Source: Escherichia phage vB_EcoM_TH18. Taken from it: a DNA stretch of 64,000 bases. The DNA lies in the sequence record ON075799; one strand, 5' to 3'. Made by a program: the position numbers and the translations under genes. Below are positions 27,031-44,067 of this stretch, piece by piece (position 1 is the stretch's first letter; each line of letters starts with the position of its first letter). The notes under the pieces were generated by a model. It worked only from the letters and a program-made list of their open reading frames with translations. It ran no database searches and was not told the origin of the DNA.

Positions 27031-28044
27031 TTATTCGAAAGTACCAGTAGAACGTACAACCAGTTCAGGACGGGTGTTAACCGTCAAGAAGGAAGTTTCA
27101 GATTCAACTTTCTCTTCACGCAGATATGCAGAAGATTTGTACCACAGATACAGTTCTTCAGCTACAGTGTTTGCTTCACGAGCATCATCTGCCGGAGCAT
27201 AATGGATCTGGAACATATCATCAATACCTTGCGGCAGGATGTATGCTTCACCATCTGGGATATATCCAGAGATGTCTTCAATGTAGGTTACGTTCTTGTG
27301 AACAAACATACGGTTGTTGGCATTCTCAGAACCCATACCCAGACGACGACGCAGCGGCTCTTGGGTAGAAGAATAATACTGGTATGCATTCATGATCAGC
27401 GGATGGGCGATCAGAGCAGAGAACCATTTACGAGAAGCCAGAACAATGATATTGTAGTTATTACCGTTATCACCTGCATTGTCGATGATGTATGCGCGAG
27501 CGTCTTTCTCAATCAGGTCAGACGGGTCAACCGCAACATCTGTGAAGTTGATATTGGCAGTGTGCTGGGTAACTCCCCACTCAGTAAAGTAGTTGTACTG
27601 TGCGGTAGGATCTTGTGGAGACCATGATTTACCCATGATTGCCTGAACCATTGCTTTTTCTTTCAGTTGTTCATGAGAAACGCGAATACGCTTAACTACG
27701 CGAGCAACTACGTCTTCAACAGTTCTAGGAGCGTCCGTAGTGAAGTATTTACGGAAGTTCTGAACATCTGCCGCAGTGATCTGACGATCCAGAGGGAAGA
27801 ACGGAATGTTGAAGTTCTTGATTTGGGCTTTTTCACTACCAACATAGTTACGTTCTCCACCACGACGACGTGCAGGAATATCCGCAACAATTTCGTCAAC
27901 ACGCTCAACACGAGCAATTGTGGTTTCACCATGATAAGCGGTGAACAGATCCATGTTGGTAATCAGGCGATACTGACGTGGAACAAGTTCCAGTGCTGCG
28001 CCAAGGTTTACGATTTGAAAGTCGTTAGTCTGTACTGCTGCCAT
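27031..28044 (-). CDS. Major capsid protein (337 aa)
   Basis: Position after scaffold and decoration genes; markedly different high-expression codon usage. Confidence 0.7.
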   Translation of the reverse strand: MAAVQTNDFQIVNLGAALELVPRQYRLITNMDLFTAYHGETTIARVERVDEIVADIPARRRGGERNYVGSEKAQIKNFNIPFFPLDRQITAADVQNFRKYFTTDAPRTVEDVVARVVKRIRVSHEQLKEKAMVQAIMGKSWSPQDPTAQYNYFTEWGVTQHTANINFTDVAVDPSDLIEKDARAYIIDNAGDNGNNYNIIVLASRKWFSALIAHPLIMNAYQYYSSTQEPLRRRLGMGSENANNRMFVHKNVTYIEDISGYIPDGEAYILPQGIDDMFQIHYAPADDAREANTVAEELYLWYKSSAYLREEKVESETSFLTVNTRPELVVRSTGTFE

Positions 28045-36275: not shown

Positions 36276-37609
36276 GATATATCACCATCACACTCAATAA
36301 TATTTTCAATCTTCAACGTTGTTTTTCTGTTTTCAGAAATACACAGACTATTAAAATTGCTAATATCGTACTGGATCTTAGATGTATCGCTTACAGAAAC
36401 CTCTAACAGAACTGCTCCAGGCTGATATATTGTAAACCCATAACTATCTCCCTCCCCGTTCTCACACAGAATTTTGTACTCTCCTCTTGCCTCCGCTTCA
36501 TCAACATAAAGTCTGAGAGTTGGAAAATTATTTGCTATATCTTCTTTGTGAAGCCCAACATGATGTTTATCTTTTGTTGGCATCATGAGATAGAAAACTT
36601 CCGCAGGACAAACTCCATATAGTTTTGTAAAATATTTCCTACCTGTTGCTTTTCTTAATCTTTGGAAAATACTGAACATATTAACTTTAGATACATCATT
36701 AAACGGCAACGGTTGCACAGGGGTAACATTTTTGTCTACCTGCTGGCAACAAGATTCTAATCTGTCTAGGAACTCAACCAAAGAATCAAGTGAAAACTGT
36801 TTTGTCTCATCAAAGATATCTGACAGTTTCATTCCGTACATCCCGCTAAGATGTGACTTTGCCGATTCCCAACTTTCTATCTGAAGGCTGGCAATAGCCA
36901 TAGCCAGTTTCATTGTCTCTTTTTTCGAAATTGTATAGCCACGAGATTTGTATTTTTCAGATCTCAAAAGTGATATAATCGGGTATTCAGTCTTATGATT
37001 TACAACTAAGACTCTTTGAGCAATATGTTTTAAGAAATTGCTATCAAATTCCCACACACCATCCTTGAAGTTAAAAGCGCCCATGTTGATTGTAAAATCA
37101 ACTTTGCTAAAGATATCTTCTGTTGTTTTGAACACATCCACAGCAACACACTGTAATACAGGATCCTGCCCAAAGTACAGCGTTACGCTCTTATCTGTCA
37201 CACCAACTCTGGTAAGATTTGGGAGATCATCTTCTTCAAGATGAAAATTTTCACATCTGGACAAAGGGTCTGTGAAACATAAATGCGTATCCTGCCCATT
37301 ATCAAGGTTATAAAAATACCTAAAAGTTCTTTTTTGATTTTCCCATCCGTTTGTCTGTGCGGTTAAATCATACTTTCCACTTAAAAGATTTTTATCCATC
37401 ATGTACGCAATGAATATCTCAAGATTTTCCCAAGATGGGAAATACAAATCAAGATCGTTGACTTTACTATTAGAGAACAAAGAGGTTATTGCCCCGCCAG
37501 CTATCTTAACATCCAGCTTCGACAATAAATCATAAACACCTTTTGGTATAAAAGAGCACAAAATGTCGTACTCTCTTTGAAAATCTTCTTTTTTGAAAAC
37601 ATGCAACAT
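36272..37609 (-). CDS. Pol-beta-superfamily nucleotidyltransferase-motif protein (about 445 aa from MLHVFKK…)
   Basis: Motif GGAITSLFSNSKVNDLDLY has the same G-G-x12-D-x-D spacing as the CCA-adding enzyme head-domain signature GGAVRD…DRD. Confidence 0.5.
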   Translation of the reverse strand: MLHVFKKEDFQREYDILCSFIPKGVYDLLSKLDVKIAGGAITSLFSNSKVNDLDLYFPSWENLEIFIAYMMDKNLLSGKYDLTAQTNGWENQKRTFRYFYNLDNGQDTHLCFTDPLSRCENFHLEEDDLPNLTRVGVTDKSVTLYFGQDPVLQCVAVDVFKTTEDIFSKVDFTINMGAFNFKDGVWEFDSNFLKHIAQRVLVVNHKTEYPIISLLRSEKYKSRGYTISKKETMKLAMAIASLQIESWESAKSHLSGMYGMKLSDIFDETKQFSLDSLVEFLDRLESCCQQVDKNVTPVQPLPFNDVSKVNMFSIFQRLRKATGRKYFTKLYGVCPAEVFYLMMPTKDKHHVGLHKEDIANNFPTLRLYVDEAEARGEYKILCENGEGDSYGFTIYQPGAVLLEVSVSDTSKIQYDISNFNSLCISENRKTTLKIENIIECDGDIS

Positions 37610-37814
37610 CTTAGCTATCCTTAAGTACAAAACAAGATGCGTAGAGACTAGCACATAAAGAAAAACCCCGCAAGAGGCGGGGTTAGGCATAGGAGAGGAG
37701 ATTGATTGGATTATTATTATAGTTATTTGAGAAAAGTGGCGAAGGAACCTTTACATGTCGAGAGTGTCTTACCGTTTACTCAGCCACGACCCTCCTTAGT
37801 GTCCACTTTAATTC

Positions 37815-37893
37815 TGGTTGCGAGTATTGGAATCGAACCTGCAATCTTCAGGGTATGAACCTAACATGGTAAATCCATTTCCACCAATCTGCA
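37815..37893 (-). tRNA. tRNA-like element, degenerate (possible anticodon CAU); likely pseudo-tRNA
   Basis: T-loop-like GGUUCGAUUCC and D-arm found, but acceptor and T stems pair poorly in hand fold. Confidence 0.25.
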
Positions 37894-37899
37894 ATAATT

Positions 37900-37975
37900 T
37901 GGTGTGACGGACAGGATTCGAACCTGTGACCACCTAGTCTTCAGCAAGGCACTCTACCAACTGAGTTACCGTCAC
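37900..37975 (-). tRNA. tRNA-Phe (anticodon GAA)
   Basis: Hand-folded cloverleaf: acceptor GUGACGG/CCGUCAC, T-arm ACAGG-UUCGAAU-CCUGU, anticodon loop CUGAAGA, CCA encoded. Confidence 0.75.
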
Positions 37976-37980
37976 ATAAT

Positions 37981-38057
37981 TGGTGGGCGATGAGGGACTC
38001 GAACCCCCAAAATTCAGGTTCTAAGCCTGACATGTATACCAATTCCATCAATCGCCC
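37981..38057 (-). tRNA. tRNA with anticodon UAG (Leu by anticodon) but class I architecture
   Basis: Acceptor GGGCGAU/AUCGCCC, anticodon arm UCAGG-CUUAGAA-CCUGA, 5-nt variable loop, A73, CCA encoded. Confidence 0.6.
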
Positions 38058-38305
38058 ATCTATATTAACAGTTATGGTTTTCCACGATACACAGAAATAG
38101 TTTTCCCATTAGCATTGATAACATAAGCGGTCTGATCCTCAGACAAAAACACTTTTTGATCAATGCCGGAAATAGCTATAGACTTTTGATGAGCACAATA
38201 CCCAACAATTTTCCCACAAAAAATTTGTTCATCATTTGGAGAGACGACTTTAACTGTTAACATGGTATCCTCTGTACATTTCTGCTTTGATATGTTTATG
38301 TTTGT

Positions 38306-38383
38306 TGGTCTGTCCGGTTGGATTTGAACCAACGACCTGGTCATCCCAAGTGACCCGCGCTACCCAAGCTGCGCTACGGACAG
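38306..38383 (-). tRNA. tRNA-Pro (anticodon UGG)
   Basis: Acceptor CUGUCCG/CGGACAG, anticodon loop CUUGGGA, T-arm GUUGG-UUCAAAU-CCAAC. Confidence 0.75.
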
Positions 38384-38467
38384 AGAAATGTAGATTTTAA
38401 TTGTCCCAGAATCTACTAACTGGTATCGCTGGCTAGGTGATATCTGTGACTTGATTAAGTCAAGAAT

Positions 38468-38559
38468 TGGCGGTTCCTGAAGGATTCGAACCTTCGGTGG
38501 GGAGATTCATTCCCAACGGCTTAACAGGCCGTCACCATCGACCACTCGGTCAAAGAACC
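38468..38559 (-). tRNA. Class II (long variable arm) tRNA with anticodon GUU (Asn by anticodon)
   Basis: 92 nt; acceptor GGUUCUU/AGGAACC, D-arm with CCGAGUGG, anticodon arm ACGGC-CUGUUAA-GCCGU, 20-nt variable arm, T-arm GAAGG-UUCGAAU-CCUUC, G73, CCA. Confidence 0.6.
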
Positions 38560-38568
38560 TGAATATTT

Positions 38569-38645
38569 TGGTGGATCTGGTTGGGGTCGAACCAACAATC
38601 TCTCGATTAAAAGTCGAGTGACTTAAACCATTTGGCTACAAATCC
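38569..38645 (-). tRNA. tRNA-Lys (anticodon UUU)
   Basis: Acceptor GGAUUUG/CAGAUCC, anticodon arm CUCGA-CUUUUAA-UCGAG. Confidence 0.75.
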
Positions 38646-38878
38646 GTTAAATTATCTTTAAAATAGCTAATTACTCGCACATAATTAGCTATACGCAACA
38701 ACTCTCCAAGGAGAGCACACTAATGATCGATTACGATTATATGACTAAATTTAGACCATCATAAGTGTTTGGCTTACGCCAGTAAAGAGCGGACTGCTCT
38801 GGGGTATCGGTAAGATGGTTGCAGCCATCTACCGAAAAATCACACCAAGCAACTAAACAAGCTACATTAAAGATAACT

Positions 38879-38967
38879 TGGAGGAGGCTGACAGAATCGA
38901 ACTGTCACCATATCTCTACAGCGGGACTGGGTTCAAACCAGCTTGTGCACCATGCACCCCAGCCTCC
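38879..38967 (-). tRNA. tRNA-Ser (anticodon UGA), class II
   Basis: Acceptor GGAGGCU/AGCCUCC, anticodon arm GCUGG-UUUGAAC-CCAGU, long variable arm, T-arm GACAG-UUCGAUU-CUGUC. Confidence 0.7.
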
Positions 38968-39038
38968 AAAGATAGCCTCTGCCGAGGATATACACCCAAC
39001 AAAGGAGGCGCTCAGGTCAGAAGAAATCTGAGCCTTAA

Positions 39039-39132
39039 TGGAGGAAGATGCCAGACTTGAACTGGCACACCCATTTCTGGGTTACTATCTCCTTAGCAGG
39101 GAGATCCCTTACCAAATTAGGGTTAATCTTCC
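39039..39132 (-). tRNA. tRNA-Ser (anticodon GCU), class II
   Basis: Acceptor GGAAGAU/AUCUUCC, anticodon arm UCUCC-CUGCUAA-GGAGA, long variable arm, T-arm GCCAG-UUCAAGU-CUGGC. Confidence 0.7.
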
Positions 39133-39153
39133 AATACCTTAGTAATTAAAAAC

Positions 39154-39243
39154 TGGTGGAGAAGGAGAGAATCGAACTCTCAAGCCGTTTTACCAGTCAG
39201 CACATTTCCAATGTGCTTTCGTCGCCAATCGATTTGCTTCTCC
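39154..39243 (-). tRNA. tRNA-Ser (anticodon GGA), class II
   Basis: Acceptor GGAGAAG/CUUCUCC, anticodon arm GCACA-UUGGAAA-UGUGC, T-arm GAGAG-UUCGAUU-CUCUC; D-arm irregular. Confidence 0.65.
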
Positions 39244-39252
39244 GTTTTAACT

Positions 39253-39328
39253 TGGCAGGGGATGGTTGATTCGAACAACCGATCACGGGGTCAAAGCCCG
39301 TTGCATTAGGCCACTATGCTAATCCCCT
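39253..39328 (-). tRNA. tRNA-Gln (anticodon UUG)
   Basis: Acceptor AGGGGAU/AUCCCCU, D-stem GCAU/AUGC, anticodon arm ACGGG-CUUUGAC-CCCGU. Confidence 0.75.
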
Positions 39329-39331
39329 TTT

Positions 39332-39409
39332 GCACGAGAGTGAGGAATAGAACCTCTTAGTCACTGGTTTTGGAGGCCAGCCTTCACCCAGTGAAGTTAC
39401 GCTACTCTC
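39332..39409 (-). tRNA. tRNA-like remnant (probable pseudo-tRNA)
   Basis: Acceptor-like GAGAGU/ACUCUC and T-arm-like GAGG-UUCUAUU-CCUC, but no canonical anticodon arm. Confidence 0.2.
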
Positions 39410-39417
39410 ATTAAAAA

Positions 39418-39975
39418 CTATTTTCGAAAAGGACTTATGAAAAATGCCAACATCACTCTCTCTCTTGAAAAAGCTCTGTCTTCAGGAACCACACTCTTCA
39501 GTTTCCAACCGACATAAATTCGCCAGTAAAATTGTTTTCCAAACAATCTAAAAGACGGGACAAACGCGAATACACCCCACGCATTGTCATTCCACATCAA
39601 CAAATAGCCTTGTTGGTTATCCTCCACATCAGAGCTTACATGGAGGTTTCCTTTCCACTTTGTCACAGATGTGATTTCACGTCCAAGTACGTGATAGGAG
39701 AAATTGTAGGCTTTATTTCTCCACAACCAAGCAACTCGTTGTAGGTAAACACCAAAACTTCCTATTTTACGGACTTCTTCCCATCTCTCTATGTGTCCTC
39801 TATCACCGTCTATAGGATTATCATATGTCTCCATCCACCTGAAAATATAAGGCAGATGCCCTGTCTTCTCATTATAGAACGGAACAACAAAAGGAGCCAG
39901 AATAACACAGAGAACCGACATAACTGGGTCAAGAGGTGCTAACAGGATCCACGATAAATATTTTAAGTATCTCAT
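39418..39975 (-). CDS. Hypothetical membrane-associated protein (185 aa) embedded in tRNA cluster
   Basis: Hydrophobic N-terminal helix; Trp-rich. Confidence 0.35.
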   Translation of the reverse strand: MRYLKYLSWILLAPLDPVMSVLCVILAPFVVPFYNEKTGHLPYIFRWMETYDNPIDGDRGHIERWEEVRKIGSFGVYLQRVAWLWRNKAYNFSYHVLGREITSVTKWKGNLHVSSDVEDNQQGYLLMWNDNAWGVFAFVPSFRLFGKQFYWRIYVGWKLKSVVPEDRAFSRERVMLAFFISPFRK

Positions 39976-40327
39976 GCAGGATCAAGCCTAGATATAATGT
40001 ACTGGTTTAAATCTGAATATGGGAAGATACTTTCAAAGATAACCTGTTTAAATCTGAAGCCGCACAAACCGAAAAGTACCTTCTGACACTCACCAAAAGA
40101 GCAATCTTTACCAACTTTTATCACAACCGTATCGGCAATCTGCACACTTTCTATCTCTTTAGATTCATGATGCCGTACTATGATTACTTTAGAAACCATC
40201 ATACTCGTCCATATTAAAGCCTTCTACTAAAGATAGTAGATGTCTAGGGTTGGACCGCAAACGCAACCCCATGGAATTTGTTACGGTCTTCAGTTGACCC
40301 AAGCGGATTTCATTGACATCTTTTAAC

Positions 40328-40402
40328 TGGAGCATCCAGAGGGTATCGAACCCTCGACTTCAGCTTGGAAGGCTGTAGTTTTCCCAATTAAACTATGGAT
40401 GC
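40328..40402 (-). tRNA. tRNA-Gly (anticodon UCC)
   Basis: Acceptor GCAUCCA/UGGAUGC, anticodon loop CUUCCAA, T-arm GAGGG-UUCGAUA-CCCUC. Confidence 0.7.
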
Positions 40403-40407
40403 ATATT

Positions 40408-40483
40408 TGGTGGGAGTGGTAGGCTCTGCCCCTACGTCCTCTCGATTATCGGTCGAGCGATCTACTAACTGATCTACACTCCC
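40408..40483 (-). tRNA. tRNA-shaped gene, anticodon GAU (Ile by anticodon), with non-canonical D-, anticodon- and T-loops
   Basis: All four stems perfectly paired, but T-loop is GGCAGAG (no UUC), D-loop AGUUAGUA lacks GG, anticodon loop CCGAUAA has C33. Confidence 0.55.
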
Positions 40484-40551
40484 AAACTGTACTGGCCCAA
40501 CAACCACGATTGGAGGGTATCGTCACACATCAAAGCCAGTACAGTTTTAGT

Positions 40552-40641
40552 TGGTGTGCCGTGATAGAGTCGAACTACCCGAGTCCCTTTCGAGACAGGA
40601 GATTTACAGTCTCCCCCGCTACCCCTACGGTCTAACGACAC
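40552..40641 (-). tRNA. tRNA-Tyr (anticodon GUA), class II
   Basis: Acceptor GUGUCGU/ACGGCAC, anticodon arm GGAGA-CUGUAAA-UCUCC, long variable arm, A73. Confidence 0.7.
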
Positions 40642-40642
40642 A

Positions 40643-40990
40643 TTAACCTTGTTTGAATTGAACAATATCCGTCGAGAACGGTTTAGCTGCCTTAATAGGT
40701 GCTTTTTCTGAGTTATCTTTTTCGAGTAACTCTTCGTTTTCCTCATCAAAGTAATCAGAAAGCATCTGCTCACCTTTCTCAATAACATAACGAGCTATAT
40801 TTTCTCTGATATTGTCTTTTGTATTCACATTCTTCATCAAATCCCTAAGAACCTGATGAGCTTCAGGAATCATTGCAATCAGATTCGTTTTTAAATCTAG
40901 GATATTTTTCTCTAACTGAATTGCATTAGATTCCTCTTTCAGAGGACGACCTTTTCCTCTTCTACGTTTTGTAAGCTGCTTAGTAGCCAT
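40643..40990 (-). CDS. Hypothetical basic/acidic protein (115 aa from MATKQL…)
   Basis: ORF trimmed to Met downstream of a consensus sigma70 promoter; longer listed ORF would overlap tRNA-Cys. Confidence 0.4.
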   Translation of the reverse strand: MATKQLTKRRRGKGRPLKEESNAIQLEKNILDLKTNLIAMIPEAHQVLRDLMKNVNTKDNIRENIARYVIEKGEQMLSDYFDEENEELLEKDNSEKAPIKAAKPFSTDIVQFKQG

Positions 40991-41009
40991 TTTAAAACCC
41001 CACTTAATG

Positions 41010-41038
41010 ATATTATCAAATAAAAACATATCTGTCAA
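41010..41038 (-). promoter_or_regulatory. Consensus sigma70-like promoter on minus strand (TTGACA, 17-nt spacer, TAATAT)
   Basis: Minus-strand reading TTGACAgatatgtttttatttgaTAATAT, about 20 nt upstream of ATG at 40990. Confidence 0.55.
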
Positions 41039-41075
41039 GTGGTATTTTAACATATTTACCAAGAAATTGAAAGTT

Positions 41076-41152
41076 TGGAGCACGGTGTCGGACTTGAACC
41101 GACATATATCTGTTTTGCAGACAGATCCGTAACCAAATTCCAGCAACCGTGC
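41076..41152 (-). tRNA. tRNA-Cys (anticodon GCA)
   Basis: Acceptor GCACGGU/ACCGUGC, anticodon arm UCUGU-CUGCAAA-ACAGA, T-arm GUCGG-UUCAAGU-CCGAC. Confidence 0.7.
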
Positions 41153-41228
41153 AATAAGTACCCCAGGTAGAGAACCTATAGAGTGGGTCTTACGAGCCGC
41201 GCTGACGATTCTCAAGTTGGGGTTAATC

Positions 41229-41305
41229 TGGTCGAGGAGACAGGATTCGAACCTGTGACCTACGGCTTAGAAGGCCGCTGCTCTATCCAACTGAGCTACA
41301 CCCCG
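41229..41305 (-). tRNA. tRNA-Arg (anticodon UCU)
   Basis: D-arm GCUC-AGUUGGAUA-GAGC, anticodon arm GCGGC-CUUCUAA-GCCGU, T-arm ACAGG-UUCGAAU-CCUGU; acceptor has one U-U mismatch. Confidence 0.7.
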
Positions 41306-41505
41306 AAAATAAGAATGCTTTATAGTGTATGGTTACTCAACCTCACTCCAACTTCCACAGTTGGTGCTCTACGAGCATGACTACGTTTGAAATCAACGTT
41401 GCGCACCGATAGCTTTCTCACGCATTGTATGCCTCATTCCCAACAAATGCTGATCAGACATTTATATCGAATAATATAAGCTAATACACTATAAAACAAA
41501 CTTGT

Positions 41506-41602
41506 GGCTGGGTGATGGAATCGAACCACCTATGTATTCAACGGCTTCCCCGTCTATTTTCAGGATTATAAATCCTCGCCCTTGCCAAAGGGCTTACCCA
41601 GC
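41506..41602 (-). tRNA. Atypical 97-nt tRNA-like gene (possible anticodon UAU) with about 30-nt extra segment
   Basis: Canonical acceptor GCUGGGU/ACCCAGC, D-arm GCCC-UUUGGCAA-GGGC, T-arm GGUGG-UUCGAUU-CCAUC; anticodon region is a 4-bp stem with loop UUUAUAA followed by 30 extra nt; CCA not encoded. Confidence 0.35.
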
Positions 41603-41604
41603 AT

Positions 41605-41679
41605 TGGTGCTCGCAGCAGGTTTCGAACCTGCAACCCCCTGCTTACAAGGCAGGTGCTCTACCGTTGAGCTATACGAGC
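41605..41679 (-). tRNA. tRNA-Thr (anticodon UGU)
   Basis: Acceptor GCUCGUA/UGCGAGC, anticodon arm CCUGC-CUUGUAA-GCAGG, T-arm GCAGG-UUCGAAA-CCUGC. Confidence 0.75.
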
Positions 41680-42044
41680 AATAAGACATTGCTTCCGATT
41701 AACAGCCTTGAGGCTTTACAGACCATATCTTGTGAGCCATAACCTGTGCCAAGGATTTCAGATGATAAACGAAATTTTATCTTTCAAGAGTCAACTTTCA
41801 AGTTTCATCTTTTACATTTAACCATTGACCTTTATTGTATGAACTTTTACTTAGTGGAAACAACAAGGCATCTTCGTGTGCCTCGCTGCATCTATGTCCT
41901 GTATTATCCTCATACATATACGATACATGGTGGGGGATATTTAACCTCCAACCCCCAGGAGGCAAGATGATGTAAACTTCGTTAATCAAAAGCAATGTTT
42001 TAAATTTCAAAACAAAGGAACGATAATGATATTATCAGAGCCTT

Positions 42045-42692
42045 TTAGAGAGAGTGCTCAATCTCAATTTCTGTCTTAGCGTTTGACTCAGACAACGCAA
42101 AATCAACGTTAGACAAGAAATCTTCAATCTCTTCTTCAAGAGAACGAATCTTAGAAGCCAGTTCAAGAGGATCCACAACCGATGGTGTGTTCATCATTCG
42201 AATAGGAGCTTCCACAGTCTTAATCTGCTCTGCATCTGGCGCTTTATCACGTTGGATATATGGCGCTCTTGCATTTTCAAGTTTATCTTCCAGAGATTTT
42301 TCTTCTTTTGCCAGAAGAAGCTGTGCAGAAGCACGCTGTGCACAAAGTTTGTTTAACAACTCTTGTTTAAAGCAAATCGTCCGTTTGCGTTCGATTGCCT
42401 CAGCAACTGTCATAGACACATTACCAATTTTGACAATTGTCTCAGCATTAGACTTAACAATTTTTGCTTTCAGTTCATCACGCACTGCCAAGAGGTCTTG
42501 CAGACTTTGATAGTCGTTGATCGCAGATTTCTTAAAATCATCAACAGAGCCGATATAACCCGGAATCTTACAATTATTCTCAGTTCCTTTTGCAATCTTA
42601 ATACAATCAAGATTGTAGATACGCTTATTGATCTTATCTTCAATTTTAGAGATAGAAGCAAGTGCACGAGTTACGGAAATCTTAGTAGACAT
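42045..42692 (-). CDS. Hypothetical protein (215 aa)
   Basis: ORF with coiled-coil-like charged regions. Confidence 0.4.
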   Translation of the reverse strand: MSTKISVTRALASISKIEDKINKRIYNLDCIKIAKGTENNCKIPGYIGSVDDFKKSAINDYQSLQDLLAVRDELKAKIVKSNAETIVKIGNVSMTVAEAIERKRTICFKQELLNKLCAQRASAQLLLAKEEKSLEDKLENARAPYIQRDKAPDAEQIKTVEAPIRMMNTPSVVDPLELASKIRSLEEEIEDFLSNVDFALSESNAKTEIEIEHSL

Positions 42693-43033
42693 GCGATCTC
42701 TCCTATGTAAATCAGCTTTGATAAAGTAACTATCCAGAAAAACAAAAACTATGTCAAGAAAAATTTTAATCTTTTACAGCATCTTTTATAGAATCACAAA
42801 GATCTTGAACAACATCAGATGTCGGTGACAAAATCATCTCGTCGGCTGCTGCTATAGCATCTGATGCTAAATCAACAAACGGAGTTGTTACCGCAGAAGT
42901 CACTTCAACAGCCGTTATTGTTACTTCGCTTGCAATCTTAAGCAAAGATCCTATCATAATCTCAACCCTCCTGAATATCCGTGATTCCCTTTATTTAACG
43001 ACGCTGGCTCACGGTGGCACTCTCGTCAATAAA

Positions 43034-43357
43034 CTATTTTTTAGTTTTCTTACCGTTTTCTACAGAAATGCTTGTTTTCTGTTTCGCTTCTCGTTCGCGC
43101 TTTGTTTTCCCAGTGCGAATACGATATGAAGCAGAAATAACTTCACCACCAATGACACGAGACACAGATTCGTAATACATTTCAGTATTACCGTCTTCAT
43201 CTTTGCGTTTTTTCAGAACTGCTACAGTTTGCGTTTTACCACCAAGGCGCACATCGTGCGGTGCAGAATGTGTCTGCGTGGATTTTGATCCAAACTGAAA
43301 AGGTTGCTTTATCGCCTCGATAGCTGACACCTTTTTAGCAGACTGTTTCTTAGCCAT
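43034..43357 (-). CDS. Hypothetical basic protein (about 107 aa from MAKKQSAKK…)
   Basis: Lys/Arg-rich small protein. Confidence 0.4.
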   Translation of the reverse strand: MAKKQSAKKVSAIEAIKQPFQFGSKSTQTHSAPHDVRLGGKTQTVAVLKKRKDEDGNTEMYYESVSRVIGGEVISASYRIRTGKTKREREAKQKTSISVENGKKTKK

Positions 43358-43409
43358 TAAGTTTTCTCCTCCGAAAACAATAAACATAGTTTATTTCGTG
43401 TGCCACATT

Positions 43410-43486
43410 TGGTGGCCCCTGCTGGACTTGAACCAGCGACCAAGCGATTATGAGTCACCTGCTCTATCCAACTGAGCTAAGGGGCC
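43410..43486 (-). tRNA. tRNA-Met (anticodon CAU; elongator-type or lysidine-modified Ile2 not distinguishable)
   Basis: Acceptor GGCCCCU/AGGGGCC with G1-C72, anticodon loop CUCAUAA, T-arm GCUGG-UUCAAGU-CCAGC. Confidence 0.75.
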
Positions 43487-43818
43487 GAATCTCTTAATAT
43501 GAGATGATATTATCCTGTATGATCTACATTGTCAAGAGATATTTTAAAATTTTATACATCCCAGTTTTCTTCTTGATAACAACCTTCCCCGAATCCAACT
43601 TCTTTTTCAAAATCAATACCTTTTTTCATACATTCCTCACATTAACAGATATTGTTTTCAAACTCAAAACGTAAAATACGAACTCTGTCAATACACTGCT
43701 GTAATCTACAAAGCAACAACTCAACTTGTTTATGCGTCTCTTCAGTATACGTTTTGGTCATCTTGCTTTTCTCCGTGATCTTTTCATTGCAGCTTCTGCA
43801 CGTCTTTGTTTACGATTT

Positions 43819-44067
43819 TTAGATGGTTGTTCTAAGGATCCTGATAACGTACTTTGTTGTGCTAATCCCTTCGATGGGGTAGAAATAATATAATCCCCCT
43901 TCTTCACCGAACGATGCAATATATTTCCAGGATTCAATTCCAAAACCAGTTGTAGAAAAAGCGACATCATCCGCTTCTTCAAGCGCATCATCATGTGTTT
44001 TATGGAAAGACTCATGTTCTACGTACTCCCCGTTATCAGACTTAAGAACCATTTTTAATTTAAACAT
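43819..44067 (-). CDS. Hypothetical small protein (82 aa)
   Basis: Preferred over overlapping alternative-frame ORF 43758..44015 on composition. Confidence 0.3.
   Translation of the reverse strand: MFKLKMVLKSDNGEYVEHESFHKTHDDALEEADDVAFSTTGFGIESWKYIASFGEEGGLYYFYPIEGISTTKYVIRILRTTI

What the first reader, a model, noticed from the sequence alone, without database searches (positions are those of the whole stretch)
37981..38057. Class I tRNA with Leu anticodon UAG
Seen in sequence: 77-nt tRNA, anticodon loop CUUAGAA (UAG, reads CUA), 5-nt variable loop, A73. Established knowledge: bacterial tRNA-Leu is class II with a long variable arm. Inference: an atypical phage tRNA reading Leu codons, perhaps charged via A73; hand-fold error is possible.
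Basis: partly seen in the sequence, partly recalled or inferred. Interest (0 to 1): 0.35.

Follow-up and report, generated by a model that had tools for sequence, protein, structure and literature searches.

The report
Phage leucine tRNA lacking long arm
This is a real, conserved phage tRNA that reads the leucine codon CUA but lacks the long extra arm of cellular leucine tRNAs; the same kind of tRNA is already annotated in phages T5/BF23 and rV5-like phages, so it is a known curiosity rather than a discovery.

Summary
At 37981-38057 on the minus strand, ARAGORN calls a 77-nt tRNA-Leu(UAG), and Rfam tRNA scores it 63 bits (E 3e-12). It has anticodon loop CUUAGAA, a 5-nt variable loop AUUUU, A73 and an encoded CCA.

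The window is an Av-05-like Escherichia phage. The tRNA sits in a tRNA array of at least 16 genes.

It is a leucine tRNA that has lost only the long arm:
- It carries the leucine-specific D arm: a 3-bp stem, G13·A22, A15, and G18G19 then A20a in the E. coli register.
- It also has U48 and A73.
- It is collinear with E. coli leuW and leuQ apart from an 8-10 nt gap.

These are the elements E. coli LeuRS is reported to need. The long arm and the anticodon are reported dispensable.

The phage BF23 counterpart also has a 5-nt loop. Its record calls it tRNA-Leu (CUA) and says a CUA-anticodon version is an effective amber suppressor.

Across 47 distinct short-arm relatives from viral contigs, 99.6% of stem cells pair and 18 of 20 pairs show compensatory change. 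It is therefore not a pseudogene.

Arm loss has recurred in phage leucine tRNAs but almost never in serine or tyrosine tRNAs.

Verdict: already known, low to moderate interest.

The parts
37981..38057 (-). Complete class I tRNA-Leu(UAG) gene, 77 nt, with the 3' CCA encoded
   Evidence: ARAGORN; Rfam tRNA 63 bits, E 3e-12; sequence.
38051..38057 (-). Acceptor stem, 5' strand (RNA 1-7, GGGCGAU). It pairs with 37985-37991.
   Evidence: Rfam alignment. All 7 pairs show compensatory changes among 47 relatives.
38032..38048 (-). D arm of the leucine type: A10-U25, U11-A24, G12-C23, then G13·A22, with loop A14 A15 U16 U17 G18 G19 U20 A20a U21
   Evidence: It has the same length and register as E. coli leuW and leuQ. 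The motif was found in 0 of about 1,940 non-Leu viral tRNAs.
38014..38030 (-). Anticodon stem-loop UCAGG CUUAGAA CCUGA. Position 37 is A.
   Evidence: All five stem pairs covary.
38021..38023 (-). Anticodon UAG (plus strand reads CTA). It reads CUA, and by wobble other CUN codons (inference).
   Evidence: ARAGORN places the anticodon at position 35. Plus-strand sequence.
38009..38013 (-). Five-nucleotide variable loop AUUUU (44-48), ending in U48, in place of the 11-16 nt arm of class II tRNA-Leu
   Evidence: Alignment with leuW and leuQ shows one 8-10 nt gap here. U48 is invariant in 47 relatives although the search pattern did not require it.
37992..38008 (-). T arm GGGGG UUCGAGU CCCUC (U54 U55 C56 A58 present)
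37981..37984 (-). Discriminator A73 followed by the encoded CCA
   Evidence: A73 is invariant in 47 relatives, and 100 of 101 short-arm Leu tRNAs have A73.
37900..37975 (-). tRNA-Phe(GAA), 5 nt downstream on the same strand; probably co-transcribed (inference)
   Evidence: The Leu-(Val)-Phe-Met order is conserved in 4MG and PVP-SE1.
37815..37893 (-). tRNA-Met(CAU)-like gene, last of the Leu-Phe-Met group; only 25 bits in Rfam
37664..37684 (-). Terminator-like G+C hairpin followed by a T run, about 130 nt downstream of the last tRNA; a possible end of the tRNA transcription unit
   Evidence: Consensus scan only.
38072..38263 (-). Small ORF (63 aa in the Av-05 annotation) ending 15 nt upstream of the tRNA. 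Small ORFs are interspersed among the tRNA genes, as in T5/BF23.

Best explanation
This is a functional phage tRNA-Leu(UAG) that has lost the long variable arm. It is transcribed within the phage tRNA array on the minus strand and processed from a Leu-Phe-Met group. It needs no CCA addition because the CCA is encoded. The host leucyl-tRNA synthetase charges it with leucine. That enzyme recognises A73 and the corner of the L-shape (the A15:U48 pair, G18G19 and A20a in the D loop, and the D-loop/T-loop contacts). It does not use the anticodon or the long arm. The charged tRNA then reads CUA and, by wobble at U34, probably other CUN codons. This adds to a host isoacceptor that serves the rarest leucine codon in the E. 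coli sample. What is shown here: the gene, its fold, its conservation and its leucine-type body. Experimental function is recorded only for the BF23 counterpart. Charging with leucine, expression, modification state and the range of codons read are inferred for this phage.
For: The gene and fold are confirmed. Selection on the cloverleaf is strong in 47 distinct short-arm relatives. Of all stem cells, 99.6% are paired, 18 of 20 pairs carry compensatory changes, and 0 of 500 shuffles reach the observed values. The body is of the leucine type. The D-arm motif occurs in 0 of about 1,940 non-Leu viral tRNAs, but in 22 of 127 Leu tRNAs with other anticodons, which the search pattern did not select. 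The tRNA is collinear with E. coli leuW and leuQ apart from one 8-10 nt gap in the variable region. A73 and U48 are invariant although the search pattern did not require them. Published identity rules say that A73, A15-U48, G18G19, A20a and the D/T-loop contacts are needed, and that the long arm and anticodon are not. Truncated tRNA-Leu without the arm remains active (PMC9976931). In GenBank AJ604530 the BF23 counterpart is called tRNA-Leu, codon CUA. That tRNA shares 18 of 19 D-arm bases (U8-G26), the same anticodon loop and a 5-nt variable loop. The record notes that a CUA-anticodon version is an effective amber suppressor. Relatives 84-87% identical are annotated tRNA-Leu in 4MG, GAP31 and PVP-SE1. 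A natural experiment agrees with this. In viral loci that carry a short-arm Leu(UAG), Ser and Tyr tRNAs keep their long arm (62 of 63 and 36 of 38). Leu tRNAs, by contrast, have lost it repeatedly: L110 and L024 are 66/69 identical outside the arm. Codon demand points the same way. CUA is 6.6 per 1000 codons in window ORFs against 4.3 in an E. coli sample, and CUU is 22.1 against 9.2.
Against: There is no direct evidence of expression or charging for this phage. The BF23 note does not say which amino acid the suppressor inserts. Position 37 is A, whereas E. coli leuW has G37, so the anticodon loop is not that of the host Leu(UAG) tRNA. CUA enrichment is modest, about 1.5-fold per 1000 codons. 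A 337-aa ORF at 27031-28044 uses CUG for 16 of its 19 leucines. It may be the major capsid gene, but that identification is a guess and was not tested. Codon supply alone is therefore a weak reason to keep the gene. The viral-contig sample was selected with a pattern that fixed part of the D loop and the anticodon loop, so conservation of those positions is not independent evidence.
Confidence: 0.85

Rival explanations
1. The arm-less form is kept mainly as a nuclease-resistant replacement. A host defence nuclease, or a phage-induced one, cuts cellular tRNA-Leu in its long variable arm or its anticodon loop. The phage copy has neither the arm nor the host loop sequence, so it escapes and keeps translation going. 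This is compatible with the tRNA being a working tRNA-Leu. It differs only in why the arm was lost.
For: There is a precedent. [quoted passage not shown] The phage anticodon loop CUUAGAA differs from host leuW UUUAGGU at positions 32, 37 and 38. The short arm is strongly associated with A37: 44 of 48 short forms against 37 of 123 long forms. Arm loss recurred independently. CUA enrichment is only modest.
Against: The papers searched named no defence nuclease that cuts the tRNA-Leu variable arm. In many viral loci a short Leu(UAG) sits beside long-arm Leu tRNAs with other anticodons (19 loci long only, 9 mixed, 16 short only), so the pressure is not uniform. The associations with A37, U21 and A10 could simply reflect shared descent.
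Confidence: 0.15
2. The tRNA is not charged with leucine. Lacking the long arm, it is taken by another synthetase and recodes CUA, or it acts as a non-translating tRNA-like RNA.
For: It lacks two features of E. coli Leu(UAG) leuW, the long arm and G37. T5/BF23 tRNA regions also hold tRNA-like RNAs of unknown function.
Against: The review states that the tRNA-Leu anticodon is not an identity element for E. coli LeuRS. From general knowledge, not checked here, many other synthetases read the anticodon, and UAG matches none of them. Pair 3-70 is G-C, so the Ala determinant G3·U70 is absent. The long arm of tRNA-Ser is also absent. All reported Leu determinants are present. Near-identical long-arm and short-arm Leu pairs exist. 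The BF23 suppressor works in translation.
Confidence: 0.04
3. It is a decaying pseudogene, a tRNA-Leu that suffered a deletion and no longer functions.
For: Some database records label the T5-like counterpart tRNA-Pseudo-TAG or tRNA-OTHER. The gene is not annotated in Av-05 or 18-1-2.
Against: 99.6% of stem cells are paired, with compensatory changes in 18 of 20 pairs, across 47 distinct sequences. The tertiary positions, A73 and the CCA are all intact. The gene is conserved from T5-like to rV5-like phages and in a Vibrio phage.
Confidence: 0.02

Closest known systems
Phage BF23 tRNAL1 (GenBank AJ604530); T5-like phages hold the same kind of gene
   Same: 77 nt; a 5-nt variable loop ending in UUUU; identical anticodon loop CUUAGAA; D arm UGAUGGAAUUGG(C/U)AUACAU, 18 of 19 bases the same; A73 and encoded CCA; located in a phage tRNA array among small ORFs.
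   Different: Only about 77% identical overall. The acceptor, anticodon and T stems differ, mostly through compensatory changes. BF23 has a U30·U40 mismatch. The neighbouring genes differ: Ala-Leu-Ser in BF23, Pro-ORF-Leu-Phe-Met here.
tRNA-Leu(UAG) of rV5-like phages 4MG, GAP31 and PVP-SE1 (Vequintavirinae)
   Same: 84-87% identical; same acceptor stem GGGCGAU, same D arm and the same AUUUU variable loop; conserved Leu-(Val)-Phe-Met order upstream of the terminase module; annotated tRNA-Leu.
   Different: The anticodon stem differs through compensatory changes. The 4MG loop is UUUAGAU. Those phages have a tRNA-Val between Leu and Phe.
E. coli tRNA-Leu(UAG) leuW and tRNA-Leu(CAG) leuQ (class II)
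   Same: Same D-arm architecture and register (3-bp stem, purine 13·A22, A14 A15 U16 U17 G18 G19 U20 A20a); U48; a similar T arm; A73; collinear outside the variable region.
   Different: The 13-15 nt variable arm is replaced by 5 nt. Position 37 is A, not G. Position 21 is U, not G. Pair 10-25 is A-U, not G-C. No blastn match to the phage tRNA was found in 5,426 E. coli genomes at E 1e-3.
Engineered arm-less E. coli tRNA-Leu variants, and animal mitochondrial tRNA-Leu
   Same: These are leucine acceptors without a long arm. The review says truncated E. coli tRNA-Leu stays active if A73 and the D/T-loop contacts are kept. It also says human mitochondrial LeuRS charges a tRNA-Leu that lacks the long arm (PMC9976931).
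   Different: Those are laboratory constructs or organelle tRNAs. This one is a natural phage gene used with a bacterial LeuRS.
Short-variable-loop tRNA-Leu(TAG) in a Mycobacterium tRNA gene cluster
   Same: A tRNA-Leu(TAG) with a short variable loop inside a tRNA gene cluster, set against the normal long-arm chromosomal isoacceptor (PMC6582537).
   Different: A different host phylum. The sequence was not compared here.

Membership tests
tRNA (Rfam RF00005) | Cloverleaf scoring above the family gathering score | tested here: met
   63.0 bits against 29, E 3.1e-12; ARAGORN call.
tRNA (Rfam RF00005) | Stems maintained by compensatory change among relatives | tested here: met
   18 of 20 pairs have changes on both sides and 99.6% of cells are paired. 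RNAalifold predicts the same structure on its own.
Bacterial tRNA-Leu as a substrate of E. coli-type LeuRS | Discriminator A73 | tested here: met
   A73 is present and invariant in 47 relatives. It is listed as crucial in PMC9976931.
Bacterial tRNA-Leu as a substrate of E. coli-type LeuRS | A15 with U48 (trans Levitt pair), and G18G19 plus A20a in the E. coli register | tested here: met
   The D loop is AAUUGGUAU against AAUUGGUAG in leuW and leuQ. U48 is the last base of the variable loop. The pairing itself is inferred from sequence.
Bacterial tRNA-Leu as a substrate of E. coli-type LeuRS | Bases for the D-loop/T-loop contacts G18:U55, G19:C56 and U54:A58 | tested here: met
   The T loop is UUCGAGU and G18G19 are present.
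Bacterial tRNA-Leu as a substrate of E. coli-type LeuRS | Leucine anticodon (NAG or YAA) | tested here: met
   UAG.
Bacterial tRNA-Leu as a substrate of E. coli-type LeuRS | Actual charging with leucine | not testable with these tools
   Only indirect evidence: the BF23 counterpart works as an amber suppressor according to its record note.
Class II (long-arm) tRNA | Variable arm with a stem, 11 nt or more | tested here: not met
   The variable loop is 5 nt, AUUUU. By structure the tRNA is class I.
Cellular CUN-reading tRNA-Leu | G37, the site of m1G37 | tested here: not met
   Position 37 is A, while leuW has G37. That G37 carries m1G in cellular CUN-reading tRNA-Leu is general knowledge and was not tested here.
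Phage short-arm tRNA-Leu(UAG) of the T5/BF23 and rV5-like kind | Leu-type D arm, loop CUUAGAA, 5-nt variable loop ending in U, A73-CCA encoded, located in a phage tRNA array | tested here: met
   All features are shared with BF23 tRNAL1 and with the 4MG and PVP-SE1 genes.

The most novel reading that the evidence does not exclude
Phages lose the long variable arm of leucine tRNAs repeatedly, and change position 37 to A along with it. The proposal is that this is an adaptation against nucleases that recognise or cut the long arm or the anticodon loop of cellular class II tRNA-Leu. On this reading the gene is an anti-defence device as much as a codon supplier. The evidence does not exclude this. 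There is a precedent for tRNA-Tyr, arm loss recurs, and it is associated with A37. No nuclease that targets tRNA-Leu was identified.
Probability: 0.12. Interest if true: 0.6.

Novelty: already known. Interest (0 to 1): 0.25.

Why it matters
[quoted passage not shown] A working leucine tRNA can therefore be class I. In practice such genes get labelled "pseudo" or "other", or are left unannotated, as in Av-05 and 18-1-2, when they are very probably functional. The survey done here adds modest comparative points. The arm-less form is common in phage tRNA arrays. It has arisen more than once. It goes together with U21, A10 and A37. Ser and Tyr tRNAs in the same arrays keep their arm. If arm loss proved to be an escape from tRNA-cutting defences, that would extend the known tRNA-Tyr and tRNA-Lys cases to leucine.

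Tried and rejected
- Single-sequence folding gave a non-cloverleaf minimum-energy structure (z = -1.99). This did not help; covariation settled the fold.
- Searches for a primary paper on the T5 or BF23 leucine tRNA, or for a discussion of its short arm, found none in the held library (one search failed on a term that was too short).
- Whole-sequence identity to other tRNA classes separates Leu from non-Leu only weakly: 60-64 matches for Leu against 57 for the best non-Leu tRNA. The D-arm motif test is the informative one.
- A blastn search of 5,426 E. coli genomes found no match at E 1e-3. A recent capture of a host gene, or a prophage copy in E. coli, is therefore unlikely.
- The bacterial Schlafen paper was checked for tRNA-Leu or long-arm targets. 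It reports Lys, Ala, Met and other tRNAs cut in the anticodon arm, and does not report Leu.
- A first version of the position-21/37 count used a faulty pattern and was replaced.
- Alignment A2 contains a meaningless fifth row that I added by mistake. It does not affect the four real rows.
- The idea that CUA is concentrated in the most highly expressed late genes is not supported.

Full report
**1. The observation**

ARAGORN finds 16 tRNA genes on the minus strand between 37815 and 43486. One of them is tRNA-Leu with anticodon tag at exactly 37981-38057. The Rfam tRNA model scores it 63.0 bits (gathering score 29, E = 3.1e-12) and marks no non-canonical pair.

The RNA reads GGGCGAU UG AUGG AAUUGGUAU ACAU G UCAGG CUUAGAA CCUGA AUUUU GGGGG UUCGAGU CCCUC AUCGCCC A CCA. 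The gene is 77 nt including an encoded CCA. The anticodon loop is CUUAGAA with anticodon UAG. The variable loop is 5 nt. The discriminator is A73.

The single-sequence minimum-energy fold is not a cloverleaf. This did not help, and comparative data settled the fold (section 3).

**2. Where it sits**

Positions 37000-44000 of the window are 100% identical to Escherichia phages 18-1-2, 19-1-2 and 24-2-1. They are 94.7% identical to phage Av-05 (Vequintavirinae, Avunavirus). In those records the tRNA is not annotated.

- The gene lies 5 nt upstream of tRNA-Phe, which is followed by a tRNA-Met-like gene.
- A terminator-like hairpin lies about 130 nt further downstream.
- A 63-codon ORF ends 15 nt upstream of the tRNA.
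- The order Leu-(Val)-Phe-Met, followed by a few ORFs and then the terminase gene, is conserved in the rV5-like phages 4MG and PVP-SE1.

**3. It is under selection as a class I cloverleaf**

A pattern scan of viral contigs for the D loop plus the anticodon loop reached its 120-locus limit. ARAGORN, run on those loci, found 115 Leu(UAG) tRNAs carrying the pattern. About 69 of them have a 5-nt variable loop and about 45 have an arm of 9-16 nt.

I aligned 47 distinct short-arm sequences without gaps. For the cloverleaf with a 3-bp D stem:

- 99.6% of 940 cells form standard pairs.
- 18 of 20 pairs have changes on both sides.
- No shuffle out of 500 reaches the observed values, and sliding the partners drops pairing to 34-50%.

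RNAalifold predicts the same structure independently. This rules out a pseudogene. The search pattern fixed G12-G19 and loop positions 32-38, so conservation there is not evidence. U48 and A73 were not fixed by the pattern, and both are invariant.

**4. It is a leucine tRNA minus the arm**

The D arm has the same length and register as E. coli leuW and leuQ. It has a 3-bp stem, then G13·A22, and a loop A14 A15 U16 U17 G18 G19 U20 A20a N21. The whole molecule aligns with both host genes, leaving a single 8-10 nt gap in the variable region.

The D-arm motif is specific to leucine. Among 2,267 distinct tRNAs called in the viral loci:

- The strict motif occurs in 0 of about 1,940 non-Leu tRNAs.
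- It occurs in 22 of 127 Leu tRNAs with other anticodons, which the pattern did not select.
- A looser form occurs in 72 of 127 such Leu tRNAs, against 8 non-Leu tRNAs.

Some short and long forms are nearly identical apart from the arm. L110 and L024 match at 66 of 69 positions, as do L018 and L080. Six of 48 short forms have a long form as their nearest neighbour. Arm loss has therefore happened more than once.

**5. How it most likely works**

According to the identity review PMC9976931, leucine identity in E. coli depends on the following:

- A73.
- The A15-U48 pair.
- G18G19 and A20a in the D loop.
- The contacts G18:U55, G19-C56 and U54:A58.

The same review says that the anticodon and the long arm are not required, and that truncated tRNA-Leu lacking the arm stays active. 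All the required bases are present here.

From general knowledge, not checked here, many other synthetases read the anticodon, and UAG matches none of them. The Ala determinant G3·U70 is absent, since pair 3-70 is G-C. The long arm of tRNA-Ser is also absent. The host LeuRS is therefore the expected charging enzyme. This step is inferred, not shown.

Functional evidence comes from a relative. GenBank AJ604530 annotates the BF23 gene tRNAL1 as tRNA-Leu recognising CUA. It states that replacing the anticodon with CUA gives an effective amber suppressor. That tRNA also has a 5-nt variable loop, the same anticodon loop and an almost identical D arm.

A comparison within phage tRNA arrays agrees with the identity rules. 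In loci holding a short Leu(UAG), Ser tRNAs keep the long arm in 62 of 63 cases and Tyr tRNAs in 36 of 38. Short forms also occur for Leu anticodons CAA, UAA, AAG and GAG.

**6. What it is for**

In long ORFs of the window, codon use compares with a 50-kb E. coli sample treated the same way as follows:

| Codon | Window, per 1000 codons | Window, share of Leu | E. coli, per 1000 codons | E. coli, share of Leu |
|---|---|---|---|---|
| CUA | 6.6 | 8.2% | 4.3 | 4.4% |
| CUU | 22.1 | 27.5% | 9.2 | 9.3% |
| CUG | 13.2 | 16.4% | 56.3 | 56.9% |

The phage thus shifts leucine use away from CUG, the commonest leucine codon in the host sample. A UAG-anticodon tRNA would help with CUA, and with CUU if U34 is modified as in the host. 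That last point is inference.

The enrichment of CUA itself is modest. A 337-aa ORF at 27031-28044 uses CUG for 16 of its 19 leucines. It may be the major capsid gene, but that is a guess that I did not test. Codon supply is plausible but is not a strong explanation on its own.

**7. Differences from E. coli tRNA-Leu beyond the arm**

Position 37 is A, whereas leuW has G37. In 171 distinct viral Leu(UAG) tRNAs with the Leu D loop, the short arm goes together with three other bases:

| Feature | Short arm (48) | Long arm (123) | Fisher p |
|---|---|---|---|
| A37 | 44 | 37 | 9e-14 |
| U21 | 43 | 12 | 9e-24 |
| A10 | 37 | 6 | 2e-21 |

The A37 and G37 samples came from two separate capped scans. 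Only the conditional comparison is meaningful: 44 of 81 A37 forms are short, against 4 of 90 G37 forms. These links may reflect structural adjustment to arm loss or merely common descent. I could not separate the two.

**8. A more speculative reading**

[quoted passage not shown] An arm-less tRNA-Leu with a non-host anticodon loop would likewise escape any nuclease aimed at those parts of tRNA-Leu.

I found no such nuclease. The bacterial Schlafen studied in PMC12330615 cuts Lys, Ala, Met and other tRNAs in the anticodon arm. I give this reading a low probability.

**9. Comparison with what is known, and novelty**

Homologues are annotated tRNA-Leu in 4MG, GAP31 and PVP-SE1 (84-87% identity) and in many T5-like phages (about 77%). 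A few records label the T5-like gene tRNA-OTHER or tRNA-Pseudo-TAG. A short-variable-loop tRNA-Leu(TAG) in a Mycobacterium tRNA cluster has been noted in print (PMC6582537). No E. coli genome among 5,426 holds a match.

The feature is therefore a member of a known, experimentally supported kind of phage tRNA. As a structure it fails membership of class II tRNA and lacks the G37 of the host Leu(UAG) gene. It passes every tested determinant for charging by LeuRS.

Verdict: real, functional, already known, of low to moderate interest. The recurrent arm loss and its associated base changes are a small new comparative observation.

Noticed in passing
window 38468-38559 (-): This tRNA has the Asn anticodon GUU and G73 but a long variable arm (92 nt in all) and a 3-bp D stem. 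Its D arm resembles tRNA-Ser: the best match is 19/20 to a viral tRNA-Ser(UGA), and 38 of the 60 nearest D arms are Ser. It is conserved in Av-05 (91 nt) and 4MG (89 nt), and the arm stem differs between them by compensatory changes. It could be recognised by AsnRS through the anticodon and G73, by SerRS through the arm, or by both. It deserves its own analysis.
   Followed up: partly
window 41506-41602 (-): Rfam tRNA hit (33 bits) that ARAGORN missed. Its anticodon loop is UUUAUAA (UAU, Ile AUA codon) and its variable region is about 26 nt. ARAGORN called 20 long-arm tRNA-Ile(UAU) genes in the viral loci, several with a CAGAUWA-like motif in the arm, so this looks like a recurrent phage form.
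   Followed up: partly
window 40411-40483 (-): Rfam tRNA hit (53 bits) not called by ARAGORN. It has an Ile-like GAU anticodon, but C at position 33 and a degenerate T loop (GGGCAGAG in place of GUUCNANU). It may be a tRNA-like RNA or a decaying gene, comparable to the tRNA-like RNAs of unknown function annotated in BF23.
   Followed up: no
window 39336-39407 (-): Weak tRNA-like hit (tRNA-Sec model, 32 bits, below its threshold) with loop CUCCAAA, that is a Trp-like CCA anticodon, and a poorly paired acceptor stem. ARAGORN does not call it.
   Followed up: no
window 37815-37893 (-): The tRNA-Met(CAU) called by ARAGORN (79 nt) scores only 25 bits in Rfam, below the gathering score. It is an unusual Met/Ile2-type tRNA at the end of the array. 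PVP-SE1 has an 82-nt gene at the matching place, which ARAGORN reads differently.
   Followed up: no
L245 (phage 4MG) 139-216 and 1963-2046: The related phage 4MG also has a short-arm tRNA-Leu(UAA) of 78 nt. Its record annotates an 84-nt tRNA-Lys. tRNAs whose arm length is unusual for their anticodon seem to be a general trait of Vequintavirinae tRNA arrays.
   Followed up: no
viral loci L002-L243: Across about 2,270 distinct phage tRNAs, long variable arms turn up in families that are normally class I (Ile-UAU 20, Asn 5, Cys 3, Pro 3, Lys 2, and others). Short arms are frequent only in Leu among the three class II families.
   Followed up: partly
window 37706-37933 and Av-05 record KM190144: The Av-05 and 18-1-2 records annotate no tRNA genes in this region. 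At least one annotated Av-05 CDS (Av05_005) lies over the Phe/Met tRNA genes and is probably spurious.
   Followed up: no
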